Assembly: GCF_000002075.1 (NCBI RefSeq) | Contig: NW_004797520.1 | Location: 242,088-302,984 of the forward strand | Length of the DNA: 60,897 bases | Reading direction: 5' to 3' | Source: Aplysia californica | Taxonomy: Eukaryota | Part shown: positions 3,601-60,527 of the stretch, in pieces | Position numbering within the stretch: position 1 is the first letter of the stretch | Layout: each line of letters starts with the position of its first letter | The notes under the pieces: generated by a model | The model's input: only the letters and a program-made list of their open reading frames with translations | Database searches by the model: none | What the model was told of the DNA's origin: nothing | Made by a program: the position numbers and the translations under genes

Positions 3601-6600
3601 CCGGACCTATTTCCTCTCCTCATGCAAGCGCTGACAAGTGGCCAGCCTAATGCAGTCCACGGTTCAATGCGAGTTCTCTCAGGTACGCTGAAGGGGCAGG
3701 AAATATGATCGCGGTTAAGCACAAGTGGGCTATCCCGAAAAATGCTGTTTTGAGAAAATCAAAGTTAAAGTTTTTGGATCCTTATTCAGTCTCTTTAAAA
3801 GACAAGGAGATTTTTCTCTATATAATCAAACAAATATACACACCAGTGAAACCAAACTTCTCCTATAGGTAGGGCAATACTCACTTTTGGTATAGGTCAA
3901 GATTTCTGGAAACTCCCGAAATCTGGGTTAGCTCGCTTGTCCTTAAAAGCGACCGTATAACAAGTTGTTTGGGACCTGGCCTGTGCATTTTCAGAGGGTT
4001 TTAGGTTTTGAGATTGATATTTGGGTCAACACTTGGAGCTAAAAAAAAGTATGAATGATGGGAATATCTTTCAAAGAAACCACAATGATCGCTTTTTTCT
4101 GCACATTTGATGAGGCGTTTTTAACTTCAGGAATACCTGTTTGGGTGCCAAGTTAATGTAGGTATGGTCAGAAGTTTTATTTTCCTTCAGCCTCAGTCTT
4201 AATCTGGCTTAGTAAGGCTCTAGACTACTTGAAAAAGTAAACATGTCTGCAGTCCCATTTGTGTATATGTAGGGGTACTAACCTGATGGACCTTAGCATG
4301 GCTGCCTTTATTATTCAGTGCTCCAAACACATGCTGGGGGGGCTCAAGTGCACAGGTCTCGGGGGAGGGGGGGGGGGTTGAAGTCTGAGCAGTTGAAAGT
4401 TGATTTGGGAGATTTATTGCCGTGGAAAAGTCCCTTTTCAGAACTGAAGCTGTTTGTTAGATAAATGATTATATGAACAATCAAAAATGACATGTGGTTA
4501 CGGAAAGTAAAAAAATAGGTGATATATATCGTCAGAAAGTTGTTCAATTGTCAAAAGCTCAGAAAGCAAAATTTTTCAAGGGAGAATAAAGACTGTCTCA
4601 TACTTTTGAAAATTGTACCTTCATTGTGTATCTCTTTCCTTGCTTTTTTTTAACATCTAGAATCTGAATTTGGACAAACAATTTCTTGAGCACATGCAGG
4701 CAATGCAATGCCACAAATTAAGAAACTGCAATTTAAAATAATAAAAAAATTGGGGATGTGTACATCTGAACAGCAGGCTGTCATTATGAAAATCAATTGT
4801 GCTGTGATCTGAAGAAATGTAGAAGGGGAATGGGGAGTATAATTTCCATGCACATTTTTTTTTTTGGTAATCACTGTCAGGAATTCATAAATTTTCTCTC
4901 CTTTTCCAAGCATTATATTATGTCATTGGTTTTATACATGGTGCAATCAGTAAGCAATTTTTAGCTGTGATGTCTTGATGATTCTCTGTTTCAGAGTTCT
5001 CCCAGGACGTGACAGACACTCAAATGGGTCACGTTGCTCCCATCATTCTGCCAGAGCTGTACAAAGTGTTTATTGGTGCTGAGGTGTGTATGTGTATGTT
5101 TTCATTCGTCTCCTCCTTGTAGCATGATTGTGTTCAGTCAGCACAGGAGGTTGGTGGGCACTGATGTTGTTTAATCTTTCTGCTTCTTTTTAGTGTAAGT
5201 AATTCGCTGAATCTTGAAATACTGGTCTGTATTTAACTATAGCATTCCTGTATAAGAATAAAGATCCACGAAGTGGTTGGTTGGCGGGTGCTCTGGTGCG
5301 GTTTGCTTCTTCTTTCCTGTCAAACACGTATCATCCTTATCTCCCCTTGTTCTTTTTTGTTTGTTACTCTCTTGCACCACCGCAAATCTTCTGGCGCTCA
5401 TATGACCTTATGCAGTGGCGAGCGCAGTAAAACCTCTACTAAAACTAAACAAAAAAAAAGATCCACGATGGGGGATTGGTCCTTGTTGGTCCACCTGCCT
5501 CAGATGGAAATGGGGGGCTATGCATCCAAAATTTATTCCTCAAACTTCACAAATTTTGTCCCGGGCCGAGGTCAGAAAGAGTCGAATGAGGTGGTGAGAA
5601 AGCAGAGAGGCGAGTAACAAGATTTTATGGGGTGGGGAAAGGTATGGCTCGACTGCAAGGAATTCAGGTCCTCTCCGATTACAATGTGATCTCTAAACCA
5701 ATTCTTTATTACACTGTTTTGGTAATAGTAGTAAAATAGATTTTTCGCAACATATTTGATTGTATCAGATTGCTCTTCTCTTTCTTCTGCTTGGAGTTAT
5801 GATTTTATTAAAAAGGACAAGGTGGTTCGCTGGTGTTCTGGTGTGGTTTGCTCCTTCTTTCCTATCGAACATCTATCTTCCTTATCTCCCCTTCTTTTTT
5901 ATGTTTGTTACTCTCTTGTAACACCTCTAATCTTCCAGCGCTCATATGACCTTATGCTGTTGCGAGCGCCATAAAACCTCTACTAAAACTAAACCTGACA
6001 GGGTAGGGGGAATACACCATAAATGCGTACTGAAGTTTGATGTTTGACTCGGTTTTCTGTTTACTGGTGGTAACCCTTTAACACATAAGTTGTACAGGCC
6101 ACAAGAGGAACTAGGCCCAGTATGTGATAGATAACCAAGTGTCATGTTATCGAATAAGGAGACTGGTGGTAACAGAAGTAGTGTGTTCACTCACCATAAA
6201 TGTTTCTTGACTCCCTGAGAAGCACGTCCTGATTCACATGATGTTGTGTTTTTCAGTCTTTTGGAGTGAGGACAAGGTCAAGAGCTGTGCACATTTTCAA
6301 CATTGTGGCTGGCATGGTTTCTACCATGCAGGAGTTCCAAAAAGTGAGTATTTCCTTCTTGCGTTTGCGTTGAATGAGTTGATGAGTACTCTGCTGTTTT
6401 CAGTCGTTGTGTTATTTCTGTGACATGCTGAAACAGTAGTGTTTCTGGGAAGCCCTTTTGAAAATTTGGTTTCAGGCTTCTATACACAGCTCAGATTTAT
6501 ATACATAACTCTTCGTCCGATTTCTCGGAGGGTCAGCACAACAACAACATTTCAACAGAAGTGTATAAGCATAAAATAATTTGCAATGTTTGTGGTGAAG

Positions 6601-9600
6601 ATCTGTGGCGTTTTAATCTTGGGATTGTTGTGTGGGGAATACTGTATTGTAGTGTGTGCCTTTTACTTTTTTTTTTCAATATTGCTATTGTCTTAGTCCA
6701 CCTCCTGGCTAAATGTGGTGACTATTGCACCACTTTGTCCGGCAAACTCGGATCAATTTACTTGACGAATTTAGTTGACATTATGACTGGGCTTTTTTTT
6801 TTTAAGGGGACGATGGCGCTTTTCCATTACTTAAGAACTAAGTAATTTAGAGGGATTTAAGCAGTTCTCCACATTGAGATGAAAGTTGTGGGTTTTTGGG
6901 CTAGAGATTCTTCCTGTTTGATATCCTGAATTGTGTGGAGATTCCAACTGAAAACGGCCACTTGTCTCCTTCCTCAGGGGGTGGCCAAGCAACTGTTGTT
7001 CCCCGTGGTGCCACAGTTCACCAAAGCCTTCATCCAGTGCCTGCAGCTCCCTGACTCCCACACCTGTGACAGCGGACTCAAACTGGAGGTCATCAAGGTA
7101 ATGGGTTTTATTTATTTATTGATTCCTTTAGTGGAGAGGGGGTGGGGTGGGGTGTTAGCTTGCATCTCTATTGGGTTTTTATTTGAACTTTAGTTTTGCC
7201 TTGAAAATGTCACAGTGCATTTCTTAAGATTTAAACGGGTCAGAGACACATTAGTTGCTAGATCTACTCGGACATGTTATGCAAGAACCGGATCCTGAGA
7301 AATTTCCTTTATGGAATTCTGAGTACATTTGGTTTCTTCTACATGTCTCTGATGTCTCTGACCCTATGGAATGCTTTCGTCTGCTGTCTTCTTTATGCAG
7401 TTTTGATGAGTTTTGTGTAAAGTGACTCTTTGACTGTTCTTTTAGTGGGTTTTTAGGAGGTGCTAAGCAACTTCTGTGTCAAAGCGGCCTGTCAATGGTC
7501 CACTGAAATAATCCTGGTGTAACTCTCAGACGTTCCCCCTGATTGCCACCTGTGGGTGGTGGGTGGGTGTTCAGGTGTGGTTTGCTCCTTCTTACCTATC
7601 GAACATATAATCATCTTTATCTCCCATCCTTCTTTTTTGTGTTTGTTACTCCCTTGTAACACCTCTAATCTTCAACATTTATACGACCTTATTGTGTTGC
7701 AAGTGCAGTAAAACTCTTACGGAAAGAAAAAAAGTCATTGCCCCTTGTCTGGTCTTACAGGCCCTGACAACACTCATCAAAGGTTTCCCCAAGACCATGG
7801 CGCCGTCGCTGCCGGAGATCCTCCCCTCGGTGTGGAGCATATTTACCCAGAGTGCAGATTTGTATCCTTTTGTGGTCCATAGGTGATTTGCTGGTGCTCT
7901 GGTGTTGGTTGCTTCTTCTTCCTCTTCTTTCTATCAAACGTCTATTGTCTTTATCTCCCCTCCTTCTTCTCTGTGTTTGTTACTTTCTTGTAACACCTCT
8001 AATCTACGCCACTTATATGACCTTATTGTGTTGCAAGTGCCGTAAAACGTTTACTAAAAATGATAACTTTTATGGTCCTCTTGGAAGGGTTTGCTACCCT
8101 GTGACAGGGAAGCACTTGAGGTGTAGAAAATTCCAGAAGTTACAGGTAAGAATATGACATTAGAAGTTATGATGGTTTTTTTCTGTAATTACTTTCTTGT
8201 GTTTGGCTTTCTCTGTCTTTGTGTATAATGAACCATAAATAACTGCAGCACAATGATAAGAGTGTATGTTGAAAATAAAGTTGTTTAAAAAACTGGCTCT
8301 AGAATTGGATTTTAATCAAAGCTGGATATATTTTTAGAAGCAAGTTTTTTTCAGCGAGATGAAAGATCTTTGACACATTCACAATTTGGTAGTTTTTGCC
8401 CTTAAAGCATGTCTCCCCGTAGTAATCTTTTGCATTACACTCATTATTTGATTGAGTTGCTTATTATAGCGTCTTAAAATGTTCATTGCTTTCCTGAATT
8501 TATGATTAGATATGTCCGGACGGTTGTGAATAATGTGGAAGATGCCGATGATCCTGTGGATTCTGATGGTAAGTCTAAAGAAATTGTTTGAGCCTTACCC
8601 AGACGAGAAACTAACTCTCAGTACGAGGGGAACTGACTTGTAGTAAATGTGCCTTGTAGTAGTGTATTTCCTGTACTGGCGATCACAAAAGCTGGTCTGT
8701 TGTATGTTGTATACTGCAGAAAAAAGGAGACCATCAAGAATTTGTTGTACTTAATTATACAACCTCTGTGGCTCCCTGCGCATAGCAAATTCTTTACTTC
8801 TTTAGTTGAGATGGTAGGTAAAGGTATGAGCCAGTGTTTTCTATAGATGAGAATTGAGGCTTGTAGAGCCTTTTCCCTTTCTAAAATTTATTTATAAAAA
8901 TTTTAAAATTTTTTTTTGGGGGGGTTGCTTACAATCTTCAATGATTATTGTGTTGTGTCTATACTGTCAAGATTTTGGTCTCTTATTTTGAGGATTTAAG
9001 AAATCTGTATTTGCAGGGCAAACTTGTGGATGCTTGTTGAAAGGTTAGGTGTGTTCTGCGCCTTCTACTTCTGTTCAGTGTTTACCATGATGCTGACAGA
9101 CTTGGTGCTTACCATGATGCTGACAGACTTCCTACTTCTGTTCAGGGCTTACCATGATGCTGACAGACTTCCTACTTCTGTTCAGGGCTTACCATGATGC
9201 TGACAGACTTCCTACTTCTGTTCAGGGCTTACCGTGATGCTGATAGACTTCTTGTTGGAATGCTCATGTTGTGCTGACCCTCTGAAAACTGCAGCTCACC
9301 TCAACGTAATTATTATAATTTATGCTTTCTTCATTCTCCTCCTCAGGTGACGTCTTGGGCTTTGAAAACCTTGTGTACACCGTGTTTGAGTTTGTCCACT
9401 GCCTGATAGAGTCGAGTCGCTATCGAAGCTCTGTGAAGAAAACTGTGGACCAAATCCTTTACTACGTGATTGTCTACACGCAGATTACAGAGGACCAGGT
9501 GAGGAAGAGATGTTACTTGAGATGTTACTTGAGATGTTACTTGAGATGTTACTTGAGATGTTACTTGAGATGTTCAGGAGCACTTTCCCTCTTGTCTGGA

Positions 9601-12600
9601 CGTTGAATGAACATTTTTTTAAATGTGACTCGTGGGTGGTTGGTGGTTGCTCTGGTATGGTTTGCTTCTTCTTTCCTATCCAACATCTATCGTCCTCATC
9701 TCCCCTCCTTTTTTATGTTTGTTACTCTCTTGTAACAGGTAATCTTTTCTTTGGCACTTATATGACCTTATTGTGTTGCAAGTGCCATAAAACTCTTACT
9801 AAAACTAAACTAAATAAAAAATATGTTAAGCTTCGGGTTCAGGGACGTGTCTGACTGTAGAAAGTAGTTGCACTTTTTGTTGGGTTGTAGTGTTTTGTGA
9901 CTTGCCTTGTTCCTTTATAACAAAATGTCATGTCATGATATAAATCATATTGTCAAGTCAAAGGCTTGGCAGTGCAGGGTTTAAGTTACAATGTGGACTT
10001 TGGTGGCATGGTTCAATGAGGGGAGTATTTTGTGCTATATTTGCTCTTTTCCTTTGTCTTTTATTTTTTTTGCTAATATTTATGGTAGGCCTACATATCT
10101 CTTTATCTTTTAAGACTATAATTATTTTAGTATATTTGCATGTTATTCTAACTTCTTGGGGTTTTTAAAAAAAACATTTTTTTTTCTTTCCTCAGATTCG
10201 TCTGTGGAGCAATAACCCCGACCAGTTTGTCGAGGATGAAGATGATGACAGTTTCTCATACTCAGTGAGGATATCGGCACAAGATTTGTTACTGGTGTGT
10301 TGTGTTGTGGGTTTTTGTGTGTGTGTGTGTGTTTTCCTTGAAGTTAAAGTAACAGTGATTTTAACCTAAGATTGCAATCTCACAGACCCTCCTGAATTGC
10401 CTTTTTTTTTTTGGACACAAACAACTCGTGACCTCAGTGCTTTCTTGTCGTATCTCCTTTAAAAAAAAAAAAAGTTAAAATGTGACTTCTTCTTAAGTTC
10501 ACTCTTTGTTATGAACTGTTTTCACCTTGTTATGAAAAATGCGAGATACGACAAGCAAGCACTGGGGTCGCGAACTGTACCGTAATAACGTGACATTGCT
10601 CGATAGTTTTACGCACACGACTGGTGGCTGTAGGGACATCAACACAGGCAGGTCGTGTTCAACGGTTATCGTGCATCTGTTTGACATTTTCTGTTTTTAA
10701 AAAAAAAACTGGGCTACTAAAGAGCAAGTTATGGTCTTTTGAGTCCCGACACTTTTTTGTACTGAATTTTAAAAAAAAATGTTTTTTCTTGAATTAAGCT
10801 TGAATTGATATATTGTATAGCTTTCTTCATAGCCTTTCCAATGTTCGAGGCACTTAAAAAGAAACACTAGCCCAACCTTGGACAGAGAGACACAACTCTC
10901 TATGGGAACCCGGGGGACCGATGGCAAACTGCAGCCTTTACACTAGAGACTGGAATGTCCATCGAAAGATAAATGCATGCTCATATGACCTTATGCTGTT
11001 GCGAGCGCAGTAAAGCTCTTACTAAAACAAACGAAAAATAAACAAGGAGAAGAAGGAAAAGAAGCTTCCTTCATATAAAGAAATTCTGAGACACCAATGG
11101 TGGGCCTGGTCAGAATGAGGAATCATGACAGTGATTTGTGACGATTATCTCAGTGAGAATTCTGCGATTTTAGTGTAGTAATCCCGCAGGAAATGTAACC
11201 CCGGACTCGTGTAAAGTTTTGTATGCATTTATGTCTATGTGACTCATGCAGAAACATCCAATCCTGAAGTTCTAATAAGATTTAACTCTTTAAACCCTGT
11301 GGGAGCGTCCGGCGGTAATGACCCCTTTCCCTGTTGCCGATACTAGTGTCAACTGTTTCGCTGCATTTAGTGCTAGTTTTTGTTTGTTTTTCGAAATTAT
11401 TCCCGATCAAGTTTTTTTAGTAATGAGTAAGCCTTTGTTTCTGCAGTTTAGAAGTTGGAGGCAAGCTTTTGGGGTTATAATGAGTCATAGTCCACCAGGT
11501 TTAGGTAGTTGTATAAAAAACTCCGGGAAACGGTTGGGAAAAACCTCAATGTTTCACACTTTGCCATAACAAGGCTCATATATAGTAATAACTCTTGCCA
11601 TCAAAGACGAAGGCATTTGGGGGGAAATCCAAAGAAACTGGGTGGTAAACATTGCTGATCGGCGAGGTGTGACGGCAAAGTGTTAAAGAGTTAAGACAAG
11701 TGCTGGTATCGCTCTCTGTTTTTCAGTCTCTGGGCACGGAGTTCCAGAGTGTGTGTCCGGAGGCGCTGTGTCAGGCTGTCACCAAGCACCTACAGGAAGC
11801 AGAGGCGGCCAAATCTGCCGGGAATCAGCACTGGTAAGTAAGCCACGCCTCCTTCCTCACTGGCCTTACCGTGTTTCCTAGGTGTATATACAACATGATC
11901 AATAACAACATTTACAACAGGAAGAGGTGTCAAATTTCTGGATAAATCCGGATTCCCGAAGTTGTCCAGATTTCATGCCAGTTGTTGAGAATTTGTTGTT
12001 TGTTTCATAAAACAGTCTCGTAGTTTTGATATGAGTTGTATTAGACTAAATTACATTACACTGTACACTCAGGCGGTGTGGTCCTTGGTGGGTTTTTTTT
12101 GTGTGTTTCTTTTGTCTGATTCTGTTTTGAGTAAAATCTGGATGTCTGTTGTTCCAACTTGTTGTAAAGTACCAACGCTATTTTGTGTGTGTTTGTGCAG
12201 GTGGAAAATCCACGAGTCGTGCATGCTTGCGTTGGGCAGTGTGAAGGACATGGTGCTTCAAGCCATCAAGGCGGGCACCGTGCAGTTCCATCTGCCAGGG
12301 TTTCTGCAGACGGTCGTTTTGGGAGATATGAACTATTCTGGTAAGGAACGCAGTGAGACCCACTGGTTTGATGTCTCTCTTTGTGATCTCAGAAATGTGT
12401 GGAGATTTGCCTCTCATGGCTATAATATTACGTGTGTGAATGGTCTCATAGCTCGGCTATTCTGACTACGAGAGTTGAGCATAGTTTCGTTTCATTAGAA
12501 AAGAAGTGTGACTGCCATTTAAAAAGGCCACAGAAAAAGCTTCTACAATGTTATCTGTAACGGGTCTATCCTCTGGGAGTGCCTCTTGTATCATCATGTA

Positions 12601-23980: not shown

Positions 23981-25199
23981 CACAGAAAGTATAAGGGCAT
24001 TGTCCACTTGGCACATCTTACTATGGGAGAAGAAGTGGTGGTGTGAAGAAGCTATAGATCTAGTCTTTGTTGATATTCCTTTATTGAAACTACTGCGTTT
24101 TTAAAGTAGTGTCTGCATGTTTCTGTTTGACTCAAAATGTTATTTAACACACTACACCCTAACTTGACCGCAAATTCTCGCTGCGACCAAGCATCTTTAG
24201 AAACCAGGTCTCGCTTTGACGACACTATGGAGCCGAGATTTTTATTTATATAGTTATTGCAAAATGTTTCTTCTTCCGTTTGATACCGAAACGAAATTTT
24301 TCGGGCCAGTCGAAGGTGTCTCGACTTGTTGAAAAGCAACACAACTGAGTTTGAATAAAGAAATAATGATGGATTTCAGCAAAAACAAGCATACGACAAA
24401 TCAGATATTGATGAAGACATTGTAGCAAGAGTTATGGGCGATTCAGATTTATCAGAGGTAGAATTTAGATCTAAGGCCGGGGTGAGAGTGATGGGTCAGA
24501 CTCCCCGATTGAACTAAAGTTAGAATATTTCCCACCGTTTGTGCATACATAGTTATATTTTTCTGAAATTACATTTAATTCTCTTTCTAACTAATTTTTT
24601 CTGGATTTTGGGAATTTTAGTATTTTTTAAACGCTTATATTCATGGGATTTGGGTTCCTTCCCCTTTCTTAGGATCTAGGAATGGACTTCCCGTCCAGGC
24701 CCTTTTCTAGTTATGTCCCTTTGCATAGTACTTGTGAAATGCCAGCGGGTAAGGCTTTGATAATCAGGGTGGAATGTGGAATTCTTTTTGTTTCATAAAT
24801 AGGCTACACTGTGTGTGCAGCATGGGTGAAAGTGACAAGAGACGATTTAGCCTCAAAATTCTGTTGTCAGAGAACTGATAACCTGAGAAGTTCATGGTAA
24901 ATTCCACGCAGCCTGAAAACATTAGGATCAACGCAAATCGCCTGTTTAGTGCTATACATGTAGCCTAGGCCTATCAATAATTTTCCAAGTACAGTTGTGC
25001 TCAGTATGACAAAAATACTATAGTTTGATCTCAAGTATTCTCAAGTTAATTGACCCACCTCTTTTTAATTGATCAACATGCTGCTCCTGTAAATGTCTGT
25101 CGAGTCGAGTTTGCAGAGTAGCCGGTCAGTGGATGAGGACAAAATCAGAAGTATAAGTATAATCCAGTGTTTGGGAGAAGCATAAAATCCATGTAGTCC

Positions 25200-25261: not shown

Positions 25262-26615
25262 GCCAAATCTCCGGTTTTTTCCTACACTTGCAAAGGAAAG
25301 AGGAATGGTAAGAGAAATGTTTTTGTTTGCTCATTTTAAGATTTTACAAAGTACATTTTAGGTTGTTTTTTTTTTAAAAATCATTTGCAACACGATATGG
25401 TCATCATATCAGTGCCAAAGAATGGAAACAATTTTGACAAGCTTCTATGTAAATGTATGACTGCTGAACGAAATCTCTGTTGTTAATGGGTAAAGAAAGG
25501 GAATTTCTATCTTTTCAATGACAATCGAAGATTTTGGTTGAAATTATAATCCAGGTGTTTTTAGCTTTTTTCTTTTCCGTGATTCAAAGTACACGTGAGC
25601 TTTTTCTGCAGACGTTGGTGGCTTGATTGGTCTTGGGGAATGAATAGGCATTAGCATGATGGGTCTTGGGGAATGAACGCTTGCTTATCGTACGGTAGAG
25701 GGTCATCTCCTTCAGATGACAATGTGATACAAAGACGGGATATACGATTTTTACGCCGGTTTTGTCTTGTACATTAACACATAATTCCCTGGCTTTTTAA
25801 CTGGCATTTTGCATGTTTTTTAATTGTTGACAGCAATATTTTACTGACATGTCCATGCGAGATGGAATAAATTATTCTCTTATTGAAGCCCTGGACAATT
25901 TTGCCTTTTTCATTCATTGTTCTGCTTTTGTCAACATCTAATAACTTATTTTGACACAAAAGGGCCGCTCTTTTAAAAAAATGAAAAGTGATGATGATGA
26001 CCAATTAAAAATTTTAAGCAGCGATATATCAGATGATAGAGCCCTTCTAATTTTTGGTTGTTTTTTTTTTGTTGGTAGAATCAACCTTGCTCTAAGTCTA
26101 ACAAAACAAAACAAAAGAAGGCTCTATCTGTACTATATATCACTGTTTGGATCTGTTGCAGCAAGTTATGTATGTGTCACTGCAGTTAAATTTTTCATGG
26201 AATGGCCCAAAATGGCCTACTGAAGTTTTTCATTTTACAAACTTGAAAAACGATAAGACAAATCACGAGGGAGAGAACCAACAGAAAATGAAAAAAAAAC
26301 CTTCCTATCCCAAACCTGTCTTGGATACAGTTACTTGAGTGAGTTACTGAGGATTGTAAATGGTTTACAAAGTGATTGACTCACTTTAGATCAGTGAAGA
26401 AAAATTGTTGCTTCCACCTTGCCCTTCATCAGGATTAACCTGGAGTATGGGAAGTTGTAGAAAGATGCTGATATTACAGATAAGACCAGATGTTTTTTAA
26501 AATTGTCTGACTTGTACATATATTATGTCATTTTACATCTTGTACAAAAAGCATTAGTATTAGCCACTATGATCCAGACATTTTTGAGTCCCCGTACATC
26601 TCCATAGAGTTAAAA

Positions 26616-26680
26616 GGACGATAGATGTTTGATAGGAAAGAAGGAGCAAACCACACCGGAGCACCTGCCAACCACCCACG
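26616..26680 (-). mobile_element. Family A 5' fragment
   Basis: GGACGATAGATGTTTGATAGG..AACCACCCACG. Confidence 0.75.
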
Positions 26681-32215: not shown

Positions 32216-33756
32216 AAAAAAAGGGTAAACCATTCGGATCGTACTCGACTTACTACAAACCCCTGGGGGGTCTCCATTGTACATGGTCCCCACATCTGGG
32301 CCTCTGAAATGTCACCGGTCTCTCTCTCGGAGTCTCTTCCTACACAAAGACTTATGATGATCCCCTCAGCCCTCCCAAGGAATCGACAGTTACCAATCCC
32401 ACCACCCAGCCCCTCTATACAAACGACAACTGATGGTGATGTACTCTACAGCTACCCCCCCCGCCCCAAAAAAAAAGAAAGGTAAATCATGACTAGACCC
32501 AATATCTTCCCTGTACTTTTTAGATTGAAGTTAAAGCACAAAAAAAACCCCATTGAGTCCTTGGGCAAACAGAAAAAAAAAAAAAGAGAGAGAGAGAGAA
32601 GAAAAAAGAGCCAAATCTATTCATATCATATATTTATAAATATGTACATGTAGTAAGTTTAAGAAGAAACAATTTTTTTGAACACATAAAGTCTTATACA
32701 CCATCACAGGTAGTAGAGGGATTTTTTTAAAGGACATACGGGGGTCCACAGCTAAAAAAACTTCAACAAAAGAAAATATGGAGTTTAATTCTTTTCACAA
32801 AATATCCGCGATTCTTCCCTTGCAACCACTCACTTTAAAAACTTTCCAATTTTACATCTTCTAAGCCCACACAAAAGCCAACAATTTCTTATAATTATAA
32901 AAAGAAAAAAGATGCCACCTTAGCAAGTTTCCTGGCTTGTACAAAGTTCAAACACCAGAGGTTTTGTAAGTATTGAAGCTACATGTCCCATGCACCAGGC
33001 CACAACAACCAATATTTATCCTCTAGGTTAGTTATCCTGAACAAACTAAATCTTTTTCACTGTTCATGATTCATTTTCAAAATCTTCTTCCAAAATTTGT
33101 GGAACTCTACTTCCAGGTATATCAAAAATTCCGCAGAAGAAGTTTACAGTCAATAACCATGACAACCAGAAGTCCAACAACTCTTCCCTGACATCCTTAA
33201 AACATGGTCAGCCTTTTGCACGGCTTTACACAGAATCAGAGCTAAAAAAAAGAATTAAAAAATTATAAATTGTTCAGTAGTGGACCCCTGTAAGGAGAAA
33301 ATAACTAGAGAAAACAGCACCAAAAACATTTTTCAAACTGAGCCACAAGATTTGTACATTATATTATATTATACACTTTCACAAAACCCAGTTTGAACAA
33401 TTTTAGCCCCACAGACAAAAGCACACAGACAGACAGATAAGTTTGAGTTGTACGGACGCAGTGCTCAACATTTGTGATTTTAATTTGGACGACGTACCTC
33501 CCACAGACAGAGCTACATTTACACCAGTGAGCCATTCCTGTTAATCCCTTACGACAGATGGAAGGGCAAAATGTGTCCTTTTTGATGAGTAGGGGGTCAC
33601 CATGAGTCAGCAAAACATCACTTGGCTACATTTTGATTTGTGAAAAAATTCAAACTTCCAAAGACAGTTTTAGTAAAGGGCGGCCTCCCCATCAATCTCT
33701 TCCGACATCTGCCCCGAAGCACATCAGATGTTCACGACTCCTTGGGACAAACAAGT

Positions 33757-33934: not shown

Positions 33935-34205
33935 ACAAGTTGCTGCAGTGCACTAACTAGTGATGACCTAGATGCACTTGGCAAATTACTACAAAGTACA
34001 AGTAGTTCCTACTTCTACCGACACAAAACAAGTGTCCACTGGACAGGGTCATCAACAGTTGAAGCTGTTCATTTATTGCACATTTTACTTTCAACAAACA
34101 ACAGTTTCCCCTGTACAGCCAAACTCCCATTGTGTAACAATGTCGTCAGACCAGACTTTCAAGTTCATTGAATCTGCATGTTCGCTATCAGAGAAAGATG
34201 CGACT

Positions 34206-34367
34206 TGTTTTAGCAAGAGTTTTACGGCACTTGCAACACAATAAGGTCATATAAGTGCTGAAGATTAGAGGTGTTACAAGAGAGTAACAAACACAAAAAA
34301 GAAGGACGATAGATGTTTGATAGGAAAGTAGGAGCAAACCACACCAGAGCACCCACCAACCACCCGC
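34206..34367 (-). mobile_element. Family A retroposon
   Basis: Reverse-complement match; TSD AAAGATGYGACT. Confidence 0.85.
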
Positions 34368-35729: not shown

Positions 35730-36335
35730 CACACAGCACTTTACTTTACACACACATACACAGGGCATGCAAGAAAAAACACACAAGACTTTACTTTACA
35801 CACACAGGGGCTGGAAGGAAAGAACACACACAGCACTTTACTTTACACACACATACACAGGGCATGCAAGAAAAAACACACAAGACTTTACTTTACACAC
35901 ACAGGGGCTGGAAGGAAAGAACACACACAGCACTTTACTTTACACACACATACACAGGGCATGCAAGAAAGAACACACAAGACTTTACTTTACACACACA
36001 CACACACATGGGCTGGAAGTAAGGAACACATAAAACTTTACTTTACACACACATGGCCTGGAAGGAAAGAACACACAAGACTTTACACACACAGGGGCTG
36101 GAAGGAAAGAACAGACACAGCACTTTACTTTACACACACACACAGAGCATGCAAGAAAGAACACACAAGACTTTACTTTACACACACACACAGGGGCTGG
36201 AAGAAAAAACACACAAGACTTTACTTTACACACACACAGGGGCTGGAAGGAAAGAACACACGCAGCACTTTACTTTACACACACACACACACACAAGACT
36301 TTACTTCACACACACACACACACATCCACAGGGCC
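35730..36335. repeat. Compound CA-rich minisatellite next to an N-gap
   Basis: Alternating units ..CTTTACTTTACACACAC.. / GGGGCTGGAAGGAAAGAAC / GGGCATGCAAGAAA. Confidence 0.92.
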
Positions 36336-36346
36336 TGAAAGAAAGC

Positions 36347-36513
36347 TTAGTTTTAGTAAGAGTATTACGGCACTTGCAACACAATAAGCTCATACAAGTG
36401 CCGAAGATTAGAGGTGTTACAAGAGAAACAAACATTTTTAAAAAAAATATTTGAAAAGGAGGAGAGATCAGGATGATAGATGTTTGATAGGAAAGAAGGA
36501 GCAAACCACACCA
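36347..36513 (-). mobile_element. Family A retroposon
   Basis: Reverse-complement match. Confidence 0.82.
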
Positions 36514-36578
36514 GCTTCGTTAACACCGTTTTTAAAAAAAAGAGTCTGGCAATCCGCGCGGACTGAAGCACAACTCAC

Positions 36579-36679: not shown

Positions 36680-39600
36680 CTGTAAACAATCAAAACACAA
36701 TGTGGAGTCTGTCCCTGTCATTTTATGCAAGAAAAATTTAGAATTTATGTTAACTGAGACCAAAAATATGAAATTATGCGATTCCGTTAATTTTAACAAA
36801 GAATGATAAAGGAAAATAATCAGAAATTATGCACACAAAAAAATCAAATTTTGCTAAATTATGCGGGGTGCATAAAACGACAGGGACAGTAGAGTTCACA
36901 CGCCACTATGTCAGACTTTCACAGATACGCCATTATTGTCAGGACTTTTTTATGTTGTCAAATTTTTTCAATACGATTGAAGAATAGCAACATTTTTAGA
37001 AAGGTCGTCATTTAATTTTTCCCCGTTTTTTCAGAAGCTCTGACCCGACAAAGATAAAACATGAATTTCAACTGCACCCAAGAAGTATTTTAAAAAAAAA
37101 TTATAGTAGAGGGTTTTACGGCACTCGCAACTGCATAAGGTCATATGAGCGCCAAGGGGTGGGTGTCAACAGAGAAGTCTTTACAGGGAATCAGACCCAC
37201 TCTGCCCACCTCTCTAGCTTCAACAGCACAAGGTCTGCTTCAACTATCAAGGCACCCCGGAAATAGCAGGTCACAAGAGAGTGACAAACATACAAAAGAA
37301 GTAGAGNNNNNNNNNNNNNNNNNNNNNNNNNNNNNNNNNNNNNNNNNNNNNNNNNNNNNNNNNNNNNNNNNNNNNNNNNNNNNNNNNNNNNNNNNNNNNN
37401 NNNNNNNNNNNGAATCAGCCCATTTTCTACTGCACTTGAACGAGAAATGTCTCCCCTTTGGGAATGGCCTAAAGACACTACAGTCAGTGGCACCGCCCCG
37501 GGAGGTACCCAAGATGTCACGGACAGTTGAAACCCATGAGGGGTTGAACAAACAATTCTGCTAAACCATAAGAAAAAGATAAACAATGTTTCTTCAGTGA
37601 TTTACTTTAATTAAACTCAACTAAACAGTCTCTACTATCACCAGTACTCACATAGAAGACAAACACACAGTCTCTTTAGTTTTAGTAAGAGTTTTATGGC
37701 ACTTGCAACACAATAAGGTCATATAAGAGCCGAAGATTAGAGGTGTTACAAGAGAGTAACATACACAAAAAAAATGGAGGGGAGATAATGACAATAGATG
37801 TTTGAAAGGAAAGAAGAAGCAAACCACACCAAAGCACACCCAGAAACACTCACATAGAAGACGCAGACAGTCTCTGCTTCCACGGTGCGACTTTTGGACA
37901 CGGAGGACGAGGACTTCCCTGAGGAGGCCGGGGATGGGTTGTCTTTGATGTTCTTGGGCTCCGGAGTGCTGTGAAGCCTTGAGCTAGGGCGAGACGAGCT
38001 GGCAGGGGCAGCAGGCGGGCTGGGACTCCGGTGAGGGGCGGGGCTTGCCGCCAGAGACGAGTGAGTCGGGGAGAGGGGGATGTCACGGGACGGGGACCCC
38101 GTCGGGGTGCGGGGGGTGGGGTTCGGAGACTGGTGGTGCGTGGGGGATACGGGCAGACTGATGTCGGGCGAAGCAGGAGGAGACGTGGAGCCCGGGGTCG
38201 GGGGTTTGGCAGGCGAGGGGGAGGGCGAGCGTTGCTTCTGCTGTTTGGGTGGCACGGGAGAGAGGGATGGGGGTGAGGCGGGCTTCCGCCGAGATGGAGG
38301 GGGCGGGGTTGGGGAATGGCGGACAGGGGCTGGGGAGTGAGAGGGCGACCGTTTGGTTCGCGAGGGCGACCGTTTGGTTCGCGAGGGCGGCCGCGGCGAG
38401 GTGTCTTGGCTCCGAGCCGGTGGGGGTGCGGGAGATTTCTCCACAGACGAGGATGACATGCGGCTGAGCCTCGGGGGCGACGGACGGGGACGTGGAGGGG
38501 GGGATTTCGACGGTGACGGCGATGATAATGATGAGGACGACAAGGGTGATAATGAGACGGCTCTCTCCTTTTTCTTCTCCTTCCGACCCCTCTTGACGGG
38601 TGATCTGCCCCGTCGCTCTTTGAGGGAAGTTTTGCTCTTTTTCTGATCCTGATGCCGATTGTCTTTGCTCGGAGCGGGAGAGTGGGTAGCCAAATCGGAA
38701 TGGCGGGGAGGGGGAGGTGGGGTTGGCGTCTTGCGCGGAACAGGGGGAGTCGGAGTTTTGCTCGGTGGGGTGGGGTCTCTTGACTTGGGCGACGGGGACG
38801 GAGTGTTGGATCGCGACTTTGAGGACACCGCTAGGGGAGAGGACTTGTGCTTGCTACCACCAGAGCTTCCTGGATGCTTGCCGGGCTTCTTGGGCTTCTC
38901 CTCCGTATTCTGTCCCTTCTTGGTAATATATCTGAAACAAGAGGCAGGCGCAGACGTCTTTTTTTTAAACCCAAACAAATAGAAAAAAAACTGATCACAC
39001 CATCAATGGATATGGAAAATCTCAAAGAAAGCTTCACGTGTTAATATGAAACACATTTTCCTTTTCAATGCCAAAGTTCTTTCAACACTGACCATCCCCT
39101 GCCACACCTTTAAAACATCAACAAGCTTTGGTTTAGTTTTAGTAAGTTTTACAGCACTTACAACACAATAAGGTCATATAAGTGCCGAAGAATAAAGGTG
39201 TTGCAAGAGAGTAACATGCACAAAAAAAGAAGGAGGAGAAATCAGGACGATAGATGTTTGATAGGAAAGAAGGAGCAAACCACACCAGAGCAACCGCATA
39301 TCACCCACATCAACAAGCAAACCCAAAGACAAGATCATCATCTTATCAACACTTTGAGATTTTCCACACCAACAAATTTATCATTCAAGAGGGGGTGGAT
39401 GGACAGAACAGACCCACTCCCTCCTACACTCTCAAAGAGTTACACTTCAACCTCCCAAGCATCCTAAAATCATACGGACATGAACGGGCCAGAAAAAAAA
39501 AGTAAAATAGAAAGTGGTGTAAAAATGAAAAGGAGAAAGAAGTTTAGTTTTACGGCATTTGCAACACATAGGGTCATATAAGTGCCGAAGAATAAAGGTG

Positions 39601-42600
39601 TTGCAAGAGAGTAACATGCACACAAAAAGAAGGAGGAGAAATCAGGACGATAGATGTTTGATAGGAAAAAAGGAGCAAACCACACCAGAGCACCCGTCAA
39701 CCACCCACGAAAGAAGAGAGAAACAAAGTTTTAGTCAGGGTGAGTCAGTATGACGGTGACTATATTTCAGAGGAAATAGTCTAAGATAACAGTAATACCC
39801 AAAAAGTCGCAGGACCTGATCACATCACAGCCACGACAAACCACCAAGATACAAACACAGCATGTCTCAACTTGCCGTCTTTTTGTTTTTAGTAAGGTTT
39901 TACGGCGCTCGCAACTGCATAAGGTCGTATAAGCGCCAAGGGGTGGATTTCAAAAGAGAAGTCCAAACGGAGAATCAGGCGTACTCTGCTCACCTCTCTA
40001 GCCTCAACAGCACAAAGTCTGCTTCGACTATCAAGGCACCCCGGAAATAGCAGTTCACAAGAAAGTGACAAACATACAAAAGAAGTAGAGGAAAAATGAC
40101 GATAGTAAGGATGAGGAAAGAAAAAGCAGCAGTTCCCCGTATGTTGTTTCGACACAGTATGAGCATGACATTGTCGAATCGGCCCATTTACAATTCTACT
40201 GTGCATAAGAACATGTTAATATTCCCCCTTTGGGAATGGCCTAAAGACACTTCAGTCAGTAGCACTGCCCTGGTGGGTACCCACAGAGTATGTCTTAACT
40301 TGCACAGTCTATTCTACAAGAGAAGACAAAAGAGGATGGGGCAGACCTAGAGCAAATTGCTGAGAGAACCTGAACAGATTGATGACGAGAAGAGACCAGG
40401 ATAATATGTATGTGCCATGACGTGGTGGAATCAGGCACTCGTCAATTTTGGGGCATATGGGGTTATTGGTATCATCTTAAAGCCTGTTCATTTGCCATCC
40501 CTTTAGTGAAAAAAATATTGATATATGTTGAATAGAAGTCGAGATGTTTGCGACTGAAGGACGTCAGGGTCGCAGGTTTCAGAGGTAAAATTATCGAAAA
40601 AATGGCTGCCAAACTCTGGTAACTTTCATAACCTAAGAGTCCTTGGAAATTTCAAATTTAAATTTTTTGTGCCTTTCAGTAAAATCCACACAGAAATGTG
40701 TTTTTAAATGGACATAACAGGTGTTAAGCCAAAAAAAAGAAAATTAGACAAAAATTGCTCATCTGCCAAAAAAGATGCAGATTTCTTTGATTTCATTATT
40801 TTGACGAGCGCCTGATTTCACCACCATGCACCACAGAGCTTTTTTTTTAGTATCTGCTCAAAGAAATGAATGTGAGGACCCGTGACCGCAGACGTCGGCT
40901 TCCGATCGGGTACTTCATGACAAACGACAACGATTCTACGACACTCACAATTTGGGGATGGCCCTCGGTGGAGACATGGACTCCCTGGACTCTCTCTTGG
41001 AATCAGAGCTCAGGGCTGGTGAGGCGGGAGAGTTGTCTCCGGTCACCATCATGGACGACGACGGCCCTGCACTGCCGATTTTGATTTTAAGCTTCACGCC
41101 ACCGAGTCCTACAGCAGGGGACGACTCGCGGGATTCTCGAGATTCCTGCTGAGGACACAATCAGGACAAAAATATTGACATTTTTTTCAGGGATAGTAAG
41201 AAGAAAGGACCCCAAAAATAGAAGTAAAATATAAACCCAAAATCACAACAAGAAGAAGAGCTTCGCCTAAAGTGTCACGTTTTGAAAGTTTAATGTCAGC
41301 TTGATCTGACTGTCTTCCATTTTCTAAAAAGTAAATGACTTTAAAAGTACTAAATTCCAGGTGTGAACACAGGAATGAGTCCACACTAACTATAAGCTCC
41401 GTGGCAATGACCACAACGACTACAAACCGACAAAAGAGATGCAAACAGTTATACTATCCTCAGTTTGAGGGTGACTCGAAAGACAGATTTATATTGAATA
41501 AGTCAGTAAAGCACTCAAAAGGCATTGTCACATGAGAACAAATGGAAACTCTGTTTCTGGGATAACCACAGTGAGCACACTCTACTCAGACAACTCAATC
41601 CCCACACACTTATTTGGAAAACAAATCAGCTTCATTCCCTTCTTCCACCCTTTCAATGCCATAATTAAATACATGGCTGGTACGTCATGGAACTGCACTC
41701 TTTACACACTGCGACCTCAGTGCTTTCTTGTCCTATTTCCATTTTTTCAAACAGTGAAAATGTGACTTCTTCTTAAGCTTACACTTAGTTATGAATTGTT
41801 TTCACTGTTATTAAAAATAGAGATACGACATGGAAGCACTGAGGTCGCGACATCTTGCTAGTGGCCTAATAGGAAATGCAAAACATATCCTACAGAAAGG
41901 GCTAATGAAGAGAAATCGAACAAAAGTACCTGTAATTTATCATAACATTTATACATTTGTTAGTTATCACTCTGAGAAAAGCACCATATACCAATTTTTC
42001 TCAGTTGACCTTTCATATAAACAATTCATTCACAGGGCTCCAAAATTCACATTATTATCACATAAGTTTTTTTTTTCTAGTTCCTTGAAATGCACTGCTA
42101 CCATAATTTGGCACTAACGTATCATATATTTGTGATATAAACCAATAGTACAAATGAGTTTTACTGAAGACTACATGTGACCTCACACACAAGAAAACCT
42201 CGGAACTTTTCCCTTTATTGAACACATTCTGAGACCACGCTATCCCTTAACAAATGAATTCAGACCTATGACTATATGGATGGCACGCCTAAAATAAATG
42301 CTTTGATGCAGTTTATATCATATGAACATTTCAGTGGCGATAAAATAATCATTAAAAAATCCCAAATTGTGCAGAAGCAATACTAGCACTTTTCAAACAA
42401 AGTCACGAGCTATCATGACTTCATGAAATTTGCAGAACCCCCAAAGAAATAATTTAAATGCTGGTCATGAGAAAATCTACGAAAATAAAGAAAGAATTTC
42501 CTGTATAATTTGGTTAGCTTGGTGATCTGAGAACTACAAGTCTTTTTAATTAAGTCATGGTAGGGTGGGGTGGGGGGTGGGAGAGAGGAGGATAAAGGTA

Positions 42601-45600
42601 AGTAAACCAACATAAATAAAAAATCTGAAAAGAAGCAGATAGGTACAAAAAGACCTCTGAAGAAGCCTGGTAAGGAACACAGCACACAACACAGTACTCA
42701 CCAAGTAACCCATCTGTGGATGAAAGCAGCGGTAAAGGTCAACCTGAGCGCCCCAGTCTTAAAATGGAAGTTTAAAAAATTGTCTTTCCCACAGAACACC
42801 ACGGCTACATCCATGTTGGTCCCACAGAGAGTGGGGACCTGGGATGTGTGTGGCCGGTCAAGCAATGTTTAGTTTTACTAATTTAGTACATGTTTTACAG
42901 CACTTGCGACATAATAAGGTCATATAAGTGCCGAAGATTAGAGGTGTTACAAGAGAGCAACAAACACAAAAAAGAAGGAGGAGAGATCAGGACGATAGAT
43001 GTTTGACAGGAAAGAAGGAGAGCAAATCACATCGAGCACCTGCCAACCACCCACTTGGTCATATAAGTTCCGAACAGAGGGCTCAGGTAGACCTTTACTA
43101 CCAAAGCAGCTACAAACATTTCTAAAGAGAAATGAAAGAAATATGAGGAGCAGACCATCACACACCAACTACACGGGGACTAGGACTAGAACGGTTCACA
43201 GCACAAGGGATAAAATGCAGCACACATCGGGTTAGTGAGTGAGGCTGCCTCAGAGAGCCCAGCCTATCAACACTACTCACTTCTACAGGGCTGCCAACCC
43301 ATCTCCATGGATTTTAGTAATGACCATAAAGAAAATTAGTAATTTCCAATAAAAATTCGTAATAATGCTCTCATTTTCAAATTACTATATTACGACGAAC
43401 AATGCTTCTACTCGTGTACGGTATTATTGTGGGCAAGACTAACTCGCGTGAAGTGGGCCAGCTGTTCCTTTTTTTAGGGGAGGGGGGCAGGGGGATGATT
43501 TAAAGATTGGCGGTTTTCCGACCATTGGCAGACGATTTACAGGTCTGCACTAAGACTTGTAAAATGAAAAAAGAACCAAAAATATTTTTTTTATAGCCAA
43601 AAATCTGGTAACGGTAGAAATTGTAATAAATCGCCTTAAGATCGGAATTTCGCAGTGAGGCTAAAAAAATTGTAATGATTACGAAAAAAACGGAATGGTT
43701 GGCAGCCCTGCTTCTACGGACACAAGGTAGAGAGAAAGGTTCACACATCGGGTTAGTGAGTGAGGTTGCCTCAGAGAGCACACACCCGACACTACTCACT
43801 TCTAGAGGCACAAGGGAGAAAACGCAGTACACATCGGGTTAGTGGGTGAGACTGCCTCAGAGAGCACAGCCGACCGACACTACTCACTTCTAGGGCACAA
43901 GGGAGAGAGAGAAAGGTTCACAATACTCACATGCTTGATTCTCACCTTCACTTTGTCTTCCCTCTTTTTCTCCTTCTCCTTTTCTCTGTCCTTCTCTTTA
44001 TGCTTCTTCTTCTTCTCTTTGTCCCTTTTTTTCTCTTTTTTATCCTTCTTGTGTTCTCTCTCCTGCAAATAACACAACAACACACGATGATAAAGATGAA
44101 GAATTGGTGTTGCTAAAACATCAAGTCATCGAGCCACCAGTTAGTCATATACTCACAGTTTCTCCTGTTGAATCCCGCTGGTCGTTCTGACCATAGTCAA
44201 AATTTGTATGATATATTCTATACAGGCATACCCTACCACTATTTTGCTCTCTTAAGTGCCAAGGAGAAAAGGTGAAACAAAAATGAATCACGTTTTAAGC
44301 TTAACTCTCATTTCTTTTCAAGGGCAGGACTACTGCTTATTCAGCGTTTCAGTCCGGCCATATGAGAGACAGGGAAACAGAGGATGAGTGCACGGTGTGT
44401 CAGATGAGTGCACGGTGTGTCAGATGAGTGCACGGTGTGTCACTAGGCCTCCCAACTCCTAGACAATCTTTGGCTTTTCGAGCTCGACTTGGAGAAACAC
44501 ACAGGTAATCAATGGTCAATTTAGTACTGGGGAAAAGGTAAAACAGAGAGACAGTAACAAAACAGGAATAGAATAAGAGTAAGATCTATCAGAAGCTCCC
44601 CCAGTTTCATTTTGTCATTTGTTGAGTAGTTAGGAAAAGTACATCAACACAATAAAGAGAGAAAGAAGAGAAGTAGGACTTACCAGTAACGCCCTCTAAT
44701 CACCCATATTGAAAACTGGACTTACCCTATGGTTGCATGAGTGCTGAGGGCAGCAAAGCAAAAGATATACTCTTCTTCTAACAACACCAGCTATTTCACT
44801 GCATTTGGCTTACCGAAAACTCTGTAAAACGGACAAATAGATATACCTTAAATATGGAATGCAATACCCAAAAACTGTGGTAGTGCAAGGAAGAGTCACA
44901 ATAACAATTCTATAGCACAAAAAAATTACCTTGTGTTTGTCCCCCTTTGCGTCACTGGCCTTGTCCTTCTCTTTCTCATCCTTCACTTTTTCTTTCTTCT
45001 CTTTCCCCCTATCCCCTTTCTCCTCCTTTGATTTGGACTTCCCTTTCTCCTCCTCTGTCTTCTCCTTCTTGTCCACCTTCGACTTTGACTCCTGCTTCGA
45101 CGGTTTCCCACTGTCGTGGTGATCTGCCCTTGACTCCAGTTTGATCTCCGGAGCGAACAGATCGTCCTCCGGTGGCACATACTTGTGGTGACTCTTGTGA
45201 CCGCCAGAGGGGCCAGAGCTGGACGATGACGACGAGTGATGCTTCGTTGTGCTGGACGAGTGCTGCTCCGATTTGGAGCTTGTGTGAGCAGGAGGGGTGG
45301 GCGCTGGTGGAGGTGGGGGAGGAGGAGGAGGAGGAGGGTGAGGAGGTGAGGAATTCCCCGCAGCACTGGGGCGTCGCGACTTCATGCTGGCGTCGGGGGG
45401 ACTGTCGTTGAACTCGTAAACCTGCAACTCCTCCGAGGAATATTTGTCCGACACAAATGGCTTGATATCGACGGGTGGTGGGTCTGGAGCCTTCTCTTTC
45501 GGCTTCCTCCCAGGCTTCTTCTTCACCTTTTTGTCTTTGTCTTTATTTTTCACGCTAGCATCTGGCTTGGAGGACGACTCCTCGTTCTGTGACTTCGTTT

Positions 45601-60339: not shown

Positions 60340-60527
60340 GTGGGTGGTTGGCGGGTGCTCTGGTGTGGTTTGCTCCTTCTCTTTTATCAAACATCTGTCG
60401 TCCTTATCTCTCCTCCTCTGTTTTGTGTACGGTACGTTACTCTCTTGCAACACATAATCTATTCTTCGACATTTATATGACCTTATTGTGTTGCAAGTGC
60501 CGTAAAACTCTCACTAAGTAAAACTAA
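60340..60527 (+). mobile_element. Family A retroposon
   Basis: Full-length match; TSD-like ACTGGSTTCT. Confidence 0.85.

What the first reader, a model, noticed from the sequence alone, without database searches (positions are those of the whole stretch)
5273..60527. Abundant short retroposon with no tRNA head, a sharp 5' end and a conserved RNA structure
Seen: about 23 copies or fragments of a ~170-bp element. Full-length copies begin at or within a few nt of (C/T)GTGGGTGGTTGG, end in an (AAACT)n-like tail, and have variable 7-28-bp TSDs. I find no GTTCRA B box and no tRNA, 5S or 7SL head. Established: variable-length TSDs with a simple-repeat tail indicate LINE-driven target-primed reverse transcription, and random 5' truncation would give ragged 5' ends. 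Inference: the RNA template has a defined 5' end made without a classical internal Pol III promoter, for example by processing or self-cleavage from a host transcript, by an external promoter at a master locus, or by a strong RT stop. This is the best candidate for an undescribed system in the window.
Basis: partly seen in the sequence, partly recalled or inferred. Interest (0 to 1): 0.72.

Follow-up and report, generated by a model that had tools for sequence, protein, structure and literature searches.

The report
Headless LINE-parasite family with fixed start
A 175-letter non-coding jumping element, with an estimated tens of thousands of copies in this animal genome, ends in the same hairpin as resident LINE retrotransposons that likely copy it, lacks the small-RNA head typical of SINEs, and shares with a sister family a fixed G-rich start that likely sets where its RNA begins.

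Summary
The window has 25 copies or fragments. In loci not chosen for the element, 93 of 133 3'-complete copies start at +1 to +4. TSDs flank 54 of 115 full copies (control 6 of 345), and the genome holds roughly 70,000 copies (extrapolated). The partner is found: two I-group LINE families with intact ORF2 share the ~55-nt tail hairpin, the only structure with covariation. Pol III is unlikely: no B box, and a T5+ run inside 102 of 115 copies. No ribozyme was found. New here: a second abundant family (F6) with a different body and tail begins with the same 12 bases at the same +1. That head matches the 5' end of neither partner LINE. So the 5'-defining signal is probably internal and of unknown origin. 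Best reading: an internal Pol II promoter, as in LP-SINEs or Sadhu (about 0.45). Boldest rival: +1 is a splice donor (GT-GGGT plus G-runs) and the template is an excised intron (about 0.2); copies are sense-biased in the window's introns (16 of 17 sites). Verdict: a new variant of a known kind. Repbase and Dfam could not be checked.

The parts
5273..5449 (+). F1 full-length copy, LINE-A-like tail, ~15-bp TSD, one extra A at the 5' junction
5818..5993 (+). F1 near-full-length copy
7552..7728 (+). F1 full-length copy
7879..8062 (+). F1 full-length copy, 12-bp TSD
9632..9810 (+). F1 full-length copy
10979..11031 (+). tail-only fragment
14208..14384 (+). F1 full-length copy (subfamily c), ~19-bp TSD; head 14208-14237, internal T6 run 14285-14290
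14325..14360 (+). LINE-derived 3' hairpin of that copy, followed by the ACTAAA-type repeat tail
15477..15652 (+). F1 full-length copy
19447..19631 (-). F1 full-length copy (subfamily b tail), 10-bp TSD; the one antisense copy inside the importin-9 gene
22434..23080 (+). tandem cluster of five F1 copies or fragments in the last intron of the importin-9 gene
23794..23981 (-). old F1 full-length copy (81% identical to consensus)
25382..25427 (-). tail fragment
26614..26679 (-). F1 head-only fragment (positions 1-67)
34205..34367 (-). F1 full-length copy with a small internal deletion, 12-bp TSD
36346..36514 (-). F1 copy truncated at about position 21
37675..37853 (-). F1 copy whose +1 position coincides with the predicted splice donor of a host exon (exon ends at 37854); the TSD duplicates the exon end
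39131..39308 (-). F1 full-length copy, ~11-bp TSD
39546..39708 (-). F1 full-length copy, 8-bp TSD
42873..43054 (-). F1 full-length copy
58039..58217 (-). F1 full-length copy, 7-bp TSD
60340..60528 (+). F1 full-length copy
39877..40282 (-). F2: ~400-nt headless relative sharing the tail and the CT-rich mid-body, with a C-run start
58558..58968 (-). F2 copy
37102..37507 (-). F2 copy interrupted by an assembly gap
44493..44712 (-). two fragments of F6, the sister family with the same first 12 bases

Best explanation
F1 is a non-coding, ~175-nt, high-copy retroposon without a small-RNA head that shares its 3' hairpin with resident I-group LINEs, which likely copy it, and its fixed start is likely set by a ~30-nt G-rich signal inside the element that most likely works as an internal RNA polymerase II promoter firing at +1. 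Shown: TSD-flanked dispersed copies, the shared tail with compensated pairs, a sharp +1, no B box, an internal T5-6 run, and the same start in sister family F6. Inferred: Pol II makes an RNA from +1 that runs through the tail; LINE ORF2p binds the hairpin, primes in the ACUAAA repeats and usually copies the short template to its end; new copies carry the head, so some become sources, and template switching swaps bodies and tails behind the same head. The origin of the head is unknown; it may come from an extinct or unsampled LINE.
For: The tail matches LINE-A and LINE-B 3' ends (z 6.8 and 7.2, 0 of 300 shuffles). An older LINE-A-lineage copy ends in the same ACTAAA-type tail (L177). LINE-A has EN, RT and RNase H and intact 1226-1227-aa ORF2 in 5 of 16 fetched loci; its 3' fragments are ragged, 154 to over 1666 nt in 30 loci. 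93 of 133 unselected F1 copies start at +1..+4. T5+ occurs in 102 of 115 copies and the consensus has no B box, which argues against Pol III. F6 shares bases 1-12 exactly (z 5.9, 0 of 500) and 44 of 63 unselected copies start at +1..+6, with another body and tail. There is no conserved upstream flank, and at most 1 of 115 copies looks like a 5' transduction. One inverted copy ends its inverted part exactly at +1 (L045). The head holds GGGTGG and GGCGGG boxes, and both families have GGT at +28..30 (sequence; the Sp/KLF and DPE readings are recalled, post hoc). Precedent: LINE 5' UTRs carry internal Pol II promoters that are often replaced (PMC2881922, passages); LP-SINEs (PMC4758252, section 10); Sadhu (PMC2848041, passages).
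Against: No promoter activity or start site was observed. Three polyA runs from one study hold F1 in 0.13% of reads, on both strands, with heterogeneous upstream sequence and no start peak, which fits passenger transcription. The libraries look 3'-biased, so they cannot settle the 5' end. The head matches the 5' end of neither LINE-A, LINE-B (old copies included) nor one Ingi-like family. There is no cap-type extra G at the 5' junction (1 of 11 single extras), though full-length LINEs lack it too (0 of 5). The DPE-like match is complete in F6 but only 4 of 5 in F1. The first six bases equal a splice-donor hexamer, which this model does not explain.
Confidence: 0.45

Rival explanations
1. Intron-born retroposon: +1 is a 5' splice site. 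Sense copies in host pre-mRNAs are sometimes used as donors, the excised intron begins exactly at GU, and LINE RT primed at the internal tail stops at the branch or at the debranched end. No promoter is needed, and the head would be a captured host intron start.
For: Both families begin GT-GGGT followed by G-runs (donor consensus and G-run enhancers recalled). 16 of 17 F1 sites inside the window's two long genes are sense (hand count; p 0.0003), and F1 lies along the T-rich strand in 73 of 101 loci. F1 is abundant as a passenger in polyA RNA. There is no cap G; single extra bases are A 5, T 4, G 1, C 1, the pattern expected for branch read-through. One window copy has its +1 position at a predicted host donor (37853). 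No LINE source for the head was found.
Against: No spliced or lariat read at +1 was seen (low-power libraries). The A/T excess is not significant (p 0.12). The strand bias is shared by LINE-A, LINE-B and F2, which do not start with GT, and is not significant in the 40 fixed-offset stretches alone (9 of 17 loci). The 37853 case can arise from junction microhomology. No precedent turned up.
Confidence: 0.22
2. Exonuclease roadblock: passenger transcripts are trimmed 5' to 3' until a two-quartet G-quadruplex at +3..+16 stops the nuclease two bases upstream.
For: The only 2-quartet motif in F1 and in F6 lies at +3..+16, and the one difference between the families there is a loop base. The G4 fold is predicted favourable in F6 (-24.8 vs -19.6 kcal/mol). 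Truncations cluster just 3' of it (16 of 34 at 11-32, p 0.003, post hoc).
Against: The G4 gains almost nothing in F1 (-21.0 vs -20.8). Loop bases are conserved too. Trimming should leave variable flank bases, but 23 of 37 strict junctions have none. No precedent turned up.
Confidence: 0.1
3. One or a few master loci are transcribed from an upstream (external) promoter, and all other copies are dead.
For: No proven internal promoter; each subfamily is internally homogeneous (91-96% to its own consensus).
Against: Three F1 subfamilies and F6 differ in body and tail but share +1. A Pol III external promoter would still stop at the internal T run.
Confidence: 0.08
4. [quoted passage not shown]
For: This mechanism is known for R2, RTE and Ingi elements (PMC5786205, section 23). 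The minimum-energy fold pairs bases 1-7 with 53-59, starting with a G-U pair.
Against: No Rfam ribozyme match at E up to 10 for F1 or up to 5 for F6. No hammerhead core and no HDV-descriptor match (descriptor recalled and not validated, as the intended control was also negative). The 7-53 pair is broken in 28 of 115 copies, including a 26-copy subfamily, and F6 has a different body.
Confidence: 0.05
5. F1 is a bipartite (internally deleted) derivative of a LINE not sampled here, so it is an ordinary RIME/NARTc-like element. This is compatible with the best explanation and would supply the origin of the head.
For: The tail is LINE-derived. The body is homologous to F2 (z 7.3), whose 5' part weakly resembles the LINE-B 5' UTR (z 2.2).
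Against: All full-length LINE-A and LINE-B copies seen begin with a different 38-nt signature. Only F1 and F6 carried the head among 206 motif matches in 1.3 Mb, apart from 7 degenerate or chance cases. Two Ingi-like families' 5' ends were not reached.
Confidence: 0.1

Closest known systems
LP-SINEs (LINE-promoter SINEs) of gastropods and bivalves (PMC4758252: passages, section 10, supplement search and part 3 of 5 of file 4)
   Same: Short, TSD-flanked, no small-RNA head, tandem-repeat 3' end, proposed Pol II transcription; an ACTAAA hexamer before the repeats is noted there too.
   Different: The LP head is a ~70-bp piece of a LINE 5' UTR (Nimb-17_LMi type); the F1/F6 head matches no LINE 5' end found here. 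No F1 head motif was found in the 4 supplement files searched (file 1 not searched).
Sadhu retroposons of Arabidopsis (PMC2848041: passages)
   Same: Non-coding, no Pol III boxes, a conserved short 5' motif followed by a polypyrimidine stretch, TSDs of 7-16 bp, sense transcription reported to begin near the start.
   Different: About 900 bp, poly(A) tail, 39 copies, partner unknown. F1 is 175 bp, has a stringent LINE-derived hairpin tail and about 10^4-10^5 copies.
Bipartite non-autonomous LINEs: RIME, NARTc, Bov-A, RTESINE (PMC5786205: passages and section 23)
   Same: Headless, LINE 3' end, very likely Pol II.
   Different: They carry the LINE's own 5' end and are reported only for the RTE, Ingi, Vingi and R2 clades. 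F1 depends on I-group LINEs with ORF1 and does not carry their 5' end.
Mollusc tRNA-SINEs with Nimb-type tails: Nin-DC, Meta, V (PMC11481361, passages; PMC4758252)
   Same: Same kind of ~35-60-nt LINE-derived tail; a Nin-domain SINE in this genome (F3) carries the same hairpin.
   Different: They have tRNA heads with A and B boxes; F1 has none.

Membership tests
Non-autonomous non-LTR retroposon (TPRT) | variable-length TSDs | tested here: met
   54 of 115 vs 6 of 345 controls
Non-autonomous non-LTR retroposon (TPRT) | 3' end shared with an autonomous LINE and ending in simple repeats | tested here: met
   z 6.8 and 7.2 against LINE-A and LINE-B 3' ends; same hairpin
Non-autonomous non-LTR retroposon (TPRT) | no coding capacity | tested here: met
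   175 nt, indels among copies
Classical SINE (tRNA, 5S, 7SL, snRNA head; Pol III) | small-RNA-derived head | tested here: not met
   ARAGORN and Rfam negative
Classical SINE (tRNA, 5S, 7SL, snRNA head; Pol III) | A and B boxes and no internal terminator | tested here: not met
   A-box-like site at +22 with one mismatch, no B box within one mismatch, T5+ run in 102 of 115 copies (box consensus recalled)
LP-SINE | head homologous to a LINE 5' UTR (LP domain) | tested here: not met
   no significant match to LINE-A or LINE-B 5' UTR (z at most 1.5); the LP alignment figure itself was not available, so the LP domain was not aligned directly
LP-SINE | Pol II transcription from the head | not testable with these tools
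   polyA libraries gave no start peak and look 3'-biased
Bipartite non-autonomous LINE | 5' end identical to the 5' end of an autonomous LINE | tested here: inconclusive
   not met for LINE-A, LINE-B and one Ingi-like family; other LINE families not sampled
Ribozyme-capped retroposon (HDV, hammerhead, twister) | ribozyme fold at the 5' end | tested here: not met
   Rfam negative; head helix not conserved; own HDV descriptor unvalidated
Sadhu-like retroposon | conserved 5' motif followed by a polypyrimidine stretch, no Pol III boxes | tested here: met
   architecture alike; the motif differs from Sadhu's, so it works alike but is not a member
Partner: I-superfamily LINE | ORF1 plus ORF2 with APE, RT and RNase H | tested here: met
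   Pfam PF14529/PF03372, PF00078, PF00075 on a 1223-aa ORF2; ~500-aa ORF1 upstream
Partner: Nimb clade | RT phylogeny groups with Nimb | not tested
   homologue search gave no clade names; the label Nimb-like is recalled and rests on published tail partnerships

The most novel reading that the evidence does not exclude
F1 and F6 are promoterless retroposons born as excised introns: their first bases are a 5' splice site with G-run enhancers, the host spliceosome cuts their RNA out of pre-mRNA with a base-exact 5' end, and an I-group LINE reverse transcriptase copies it from the internal tail hairpin. The spliceosome, not a promoter or a ribozyme, would then define a mobile element's 5' end.
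Probability: 0.2. Interest if true: 0.85.

Novelty: new variant of a known kind. Interest (0 to 1): 0.55.

Why it matters
SINE-like elements need a way to make an RNA with a complete 5' end at every new site. Known solutions are Pol III heads, LINE promoters and ribozymes. Here two very abundant families solve it with a shared ~30-nt head that matches none of these in the tests run, so one short motif can be tested directly by reporter, splicing and nuclease assays. If it is a promoter, tens of thousands of copies scatter a minimal Pol II promoter through this genome's genes. If it is a splice donor, it would be a route to retrotransposition for which the searches here found no description, and a large source of cryptic donors. 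Either way the intact partner LINEs make a retrotransposition assay feasible.

Tried and rejected
A tRNA head upstream of the motif in one locus (L207) was an F6 copy inserted behind a truncated tRNA-headed SINE with a different body: rejected. The idea that the F1 head is an inverted copy of the F2 start was not significant (z 1.2). RNase H-bearing Ingi-like LINEs have other tails and are not the partner. Older LINE-A and LINE-B copies start with the same signature as young ones, so a replaced 5' UTR in these lineages was not seen. Rfam at relaxed thresholds on F1, F6, F2 and the LINE-A 5' end gave only sub-threshold matches. The HDV descriptor found nothing, but also nothing in its intended control, so it carries little weight. 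No RNA holder was listed on record among the indexed runs; three raw polyA runs were laid instead, and no small-RNA, CAGE or gonad-labelled run was offered. A cap-derived extra G was not seen in F1 or in full-length LINEs. Literature searches that found no description of the family or of a splice-defined SINE; subscription journals, Repbase, Dfam and SINEBase were not searchable, and supplement file 1 of PMC4758252 was not searched. Earlier scan notes held no look-alike sequence.
Full report
OBSERVATION. A profile built from eight window copies finds 30 hits, 25 from the ~175-nt element (here F1) or its tail and 5 from a longer relative, F2. 19 of the 25 begin at model positions 2-6. Under a strict filter, 93 of 133 3'-complete copies in sequence not chosen for F1 start at +1..+4: 18 of 32 in forty fixed-offset 10-kb stretches, 62 of 85 in loci fetched for other queries, and 13 of 16 in the window. 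The other 40 are 5'-truncated. The fixed-offset density is about 100 per Mb of called bases, which extrapolates to roughly 70,000 copies; this rests on large contigs only. The base before +1 is not conserved. TSDs were found in 54 of 115 full copies, a set that includes loci selected with F1, against 6 of 345 controls. Rfam and ARAGORN find nothing.

HOST. The window holds an importin-9 gene on +, a Bromo_TP/PHD gene on - (the name TAF3 is recalled) and an ARL6 gene. A sea-hare-like gastropod is therefore likely; no tool confirmed it.

PARTNER. Following the tail upstream led to LINE-A, about 6 kb, with a ~500-aa ORF1 and an ORF2 holding endonuclease, RT and RNase H. An endonuclease search led to LINE-B, about 60% identical in that domain. 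The F1 tail aligns to both 3' ends (z 6.8 and 7.2), and an old LINE-A-lineage copy ends in F1's repeat type. LINE-A fragments are ragged, a control from the same enzyme. The same hairpin ends F1, F2, F6, both LINEs and three other SINE families. Within F1, pairs 125/152 (AT 79, GC 13) and 128/149 (TA 84, CG 18) change together; this is one subfamily split, not many events. So the conserved structure is the usual stringent LINE recognition stem. The Nimb label is recalled; no tree was built and the homologue search named no clade.

NOT POL III, NO RIBOZYME FOUND. The consensus has no B box within one mismatch, and a run of five or more T lies mid-element in 102 of 115 copies. The first 120 nt fold no better than shuffles (z -1.5), and the helix pairing bases 1-7 is broken in a 26-copy subfamily. 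Rfam shows no ribozyme. My HDV descriptor is recalled and failed on its control, so it adds little.

THE SHARED HEAD. A second family, F6 (~135 nt, 20 copies in the 315 kb of fixed-offset sequence), has another body and a LINE-B-like tail but the same first 12 bases and a similar first 30 (z 5.9). 44 of 63 unselected copies start at +1..+6; its TSD support is weaker (13 of 59 vs 3 of 59). Among 206 matches to the shared motif in 1.3 Mb, 152 were F1, 47 were F6 and 7 were degenerate or chance. The head does not match the 5' UTR of LINE-A or LINE-B (z at most 1.5; the best score against any LINE UTR tested was 2.4, to the LINE-B 3' UTR), of their older copies, or the one Ingi-like 5' end reached. 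The F1 body is homologous to the middle of F2 (z 7.3). At most 1 of 115 copies could carry a 5' transduction (9 distant matches, 5 of them plus one further locus read, the rest judged from the printed matches as tandem or simple repeats). One inverted copy of 161 head hits ends its inverted part exactly at +1. Together these indicate a template RNA that begins at +1 and a signal that travels inside the element.

WHAT THE SIGNAL DOES. Three readings fit the 30 nt. (a) An internal Pol II promoter: strong precedent in LINEs (PMC2881922, passages), LP-SINEs (PMC4758252) and Sadhu (PMC2848041); GC/GT-box-like words and GGT at +28..30 in both families (motif names recalled, post hoc). (b) A splice donor: GT-GGGT at exactly +1, G-runs behind it, 16 of 17 sites sense within the window's two long genes (hand count), and one copy whose +1 position is a predicted host donor. 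Against (b): the strand bias (73 of 101 loci) is shared by LINE-A (34 of 45), LINE-B (28 of 36) and F2 (42 of 59), is absent in the Nin SINE (20 of 42), is not significant in the fixed-offset set (9 of 17), and may be inflated by unmasked T-rich fragments; the A/T excess among extra junction bases is not significant. (c) A two-quartet G4 blocking a 5' exonuclease: motif present in both families, energy gain only in F6. RNA-seq does not decide. F1 takes 0.13% of reads in a polyA run (19,548 of 14.8 million; similar in two more runs of the same study), on both strands, with mixed upstream sequence and no start peak; the libraries appear stranded and 3'-biased. I put (a) at 0.45, (b) at about 0.2 and (c) at 0.1. 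That I-type RT can start within tandem repeats of a longer transcript is recalled; only the title of that paper was seen, in the reference list.

COMPARISON AND VERDICT. F1 works like an LP-SINE or Sadhu element, fails the membership tests for classical SINEs and LP-SINEs, and is unproven as a bipartite LINE. PMC5786205 (section 23) lists only RTE, Ingi, Vingi and R2 as sources of ORF-less bipartite elements, so an I-group-dependent headless family at this copy number is unusual. Searches found no description, but repeat databases were out of reach and an unannotated entry there is likely. PMC11203168 and PMC11481361 were read as passages only. Verdict: real, a new variant of a known kind, interest 0.55, with a 0.2 chance of a splice-defined mechanism that would deserve 0.85.

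Noticed in passing
L148:2235-2272, L166 (minus strand) and other full-length LINE-A and LINE-B copies: Two LINE families only ~60% identical in the endonuclease begin with an identical 38-nt signature that could form an H-type pseudoknot (C-run with G-run, plus a 9-bp stem) around a TATA-like linker. No Rfam match. Four of five extra junction bases are C.
   Followed up: partly
window 39877-40282 (-), L031-L060: F2, a ~400-nt headless family, starts in a C-run of variable length and keeps a G-run motif like the one near the LINE 5' end; 11 of 20 unselected copies are full length. It may be an old bipartite I-group derivative (z 2.2 to the LINE-B 5' UTR).
   Followed up: partly
L292 (minus strand, positions 1709-1742 of the reverse complement): F1 bases 1-32 are fused directly to the first base of a full-length LINE-B: either a template-switch chimera or an insertion into F1 followed by deletion.
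   Followed up: partly
window 37652-37880 (-): An F1 insertion duplicated the end of a host exon and its donor; the upstream copy keeps the reading frame and the downstream copy has decayed.
   Followed up: partly
all loci: F1, F6, F2, LINE-A and LINE-B tend to be co-oriented within 5 kb (F1-F6 67 same vs 8 opposite; F1-F1 98 vs 29), while the Nin SINE with the same tail is not (11 vs 13). Unexplained.
   Followed up: partly
L002, L050, L162, L177, L207; window 22434-23080: F1 often inserts into or next to older F1 copies: same-strand F1 sequence lies directly upstream of 10 and downstream of 11 of 115 full copies.
   Followed up: partly
L054, L161, L220, L224-L252: At least four other SINE families occur in the genome: a Nin-domain SINE and two tRNA-headed families with the I-group tail, and a tRNA-headed family with a different tail.
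   Followed up: partly
window 52091-52705 (+): The ARL6/BBS3 coding sequence is a single uninterrupted ORF.
   Followed up: no
window 31747-32282, 35730-36320, 46460-46840, 18857-19244: Minisatellite arrays with 67-nt, 97-nt, ~22-24-nt and ~35-nt units.
   Followed up: no
window 23383: Many antisense reads begin here in all three runs, the likely polyA site of the importin-9 gene.
   Followed up: no
L305:1722, L306, L317: An Ingi-like LINE family has a sharp G-rich 5' end; not tested further for a ribozyme beyond the unvalidated descriptor.
   Followed up: no
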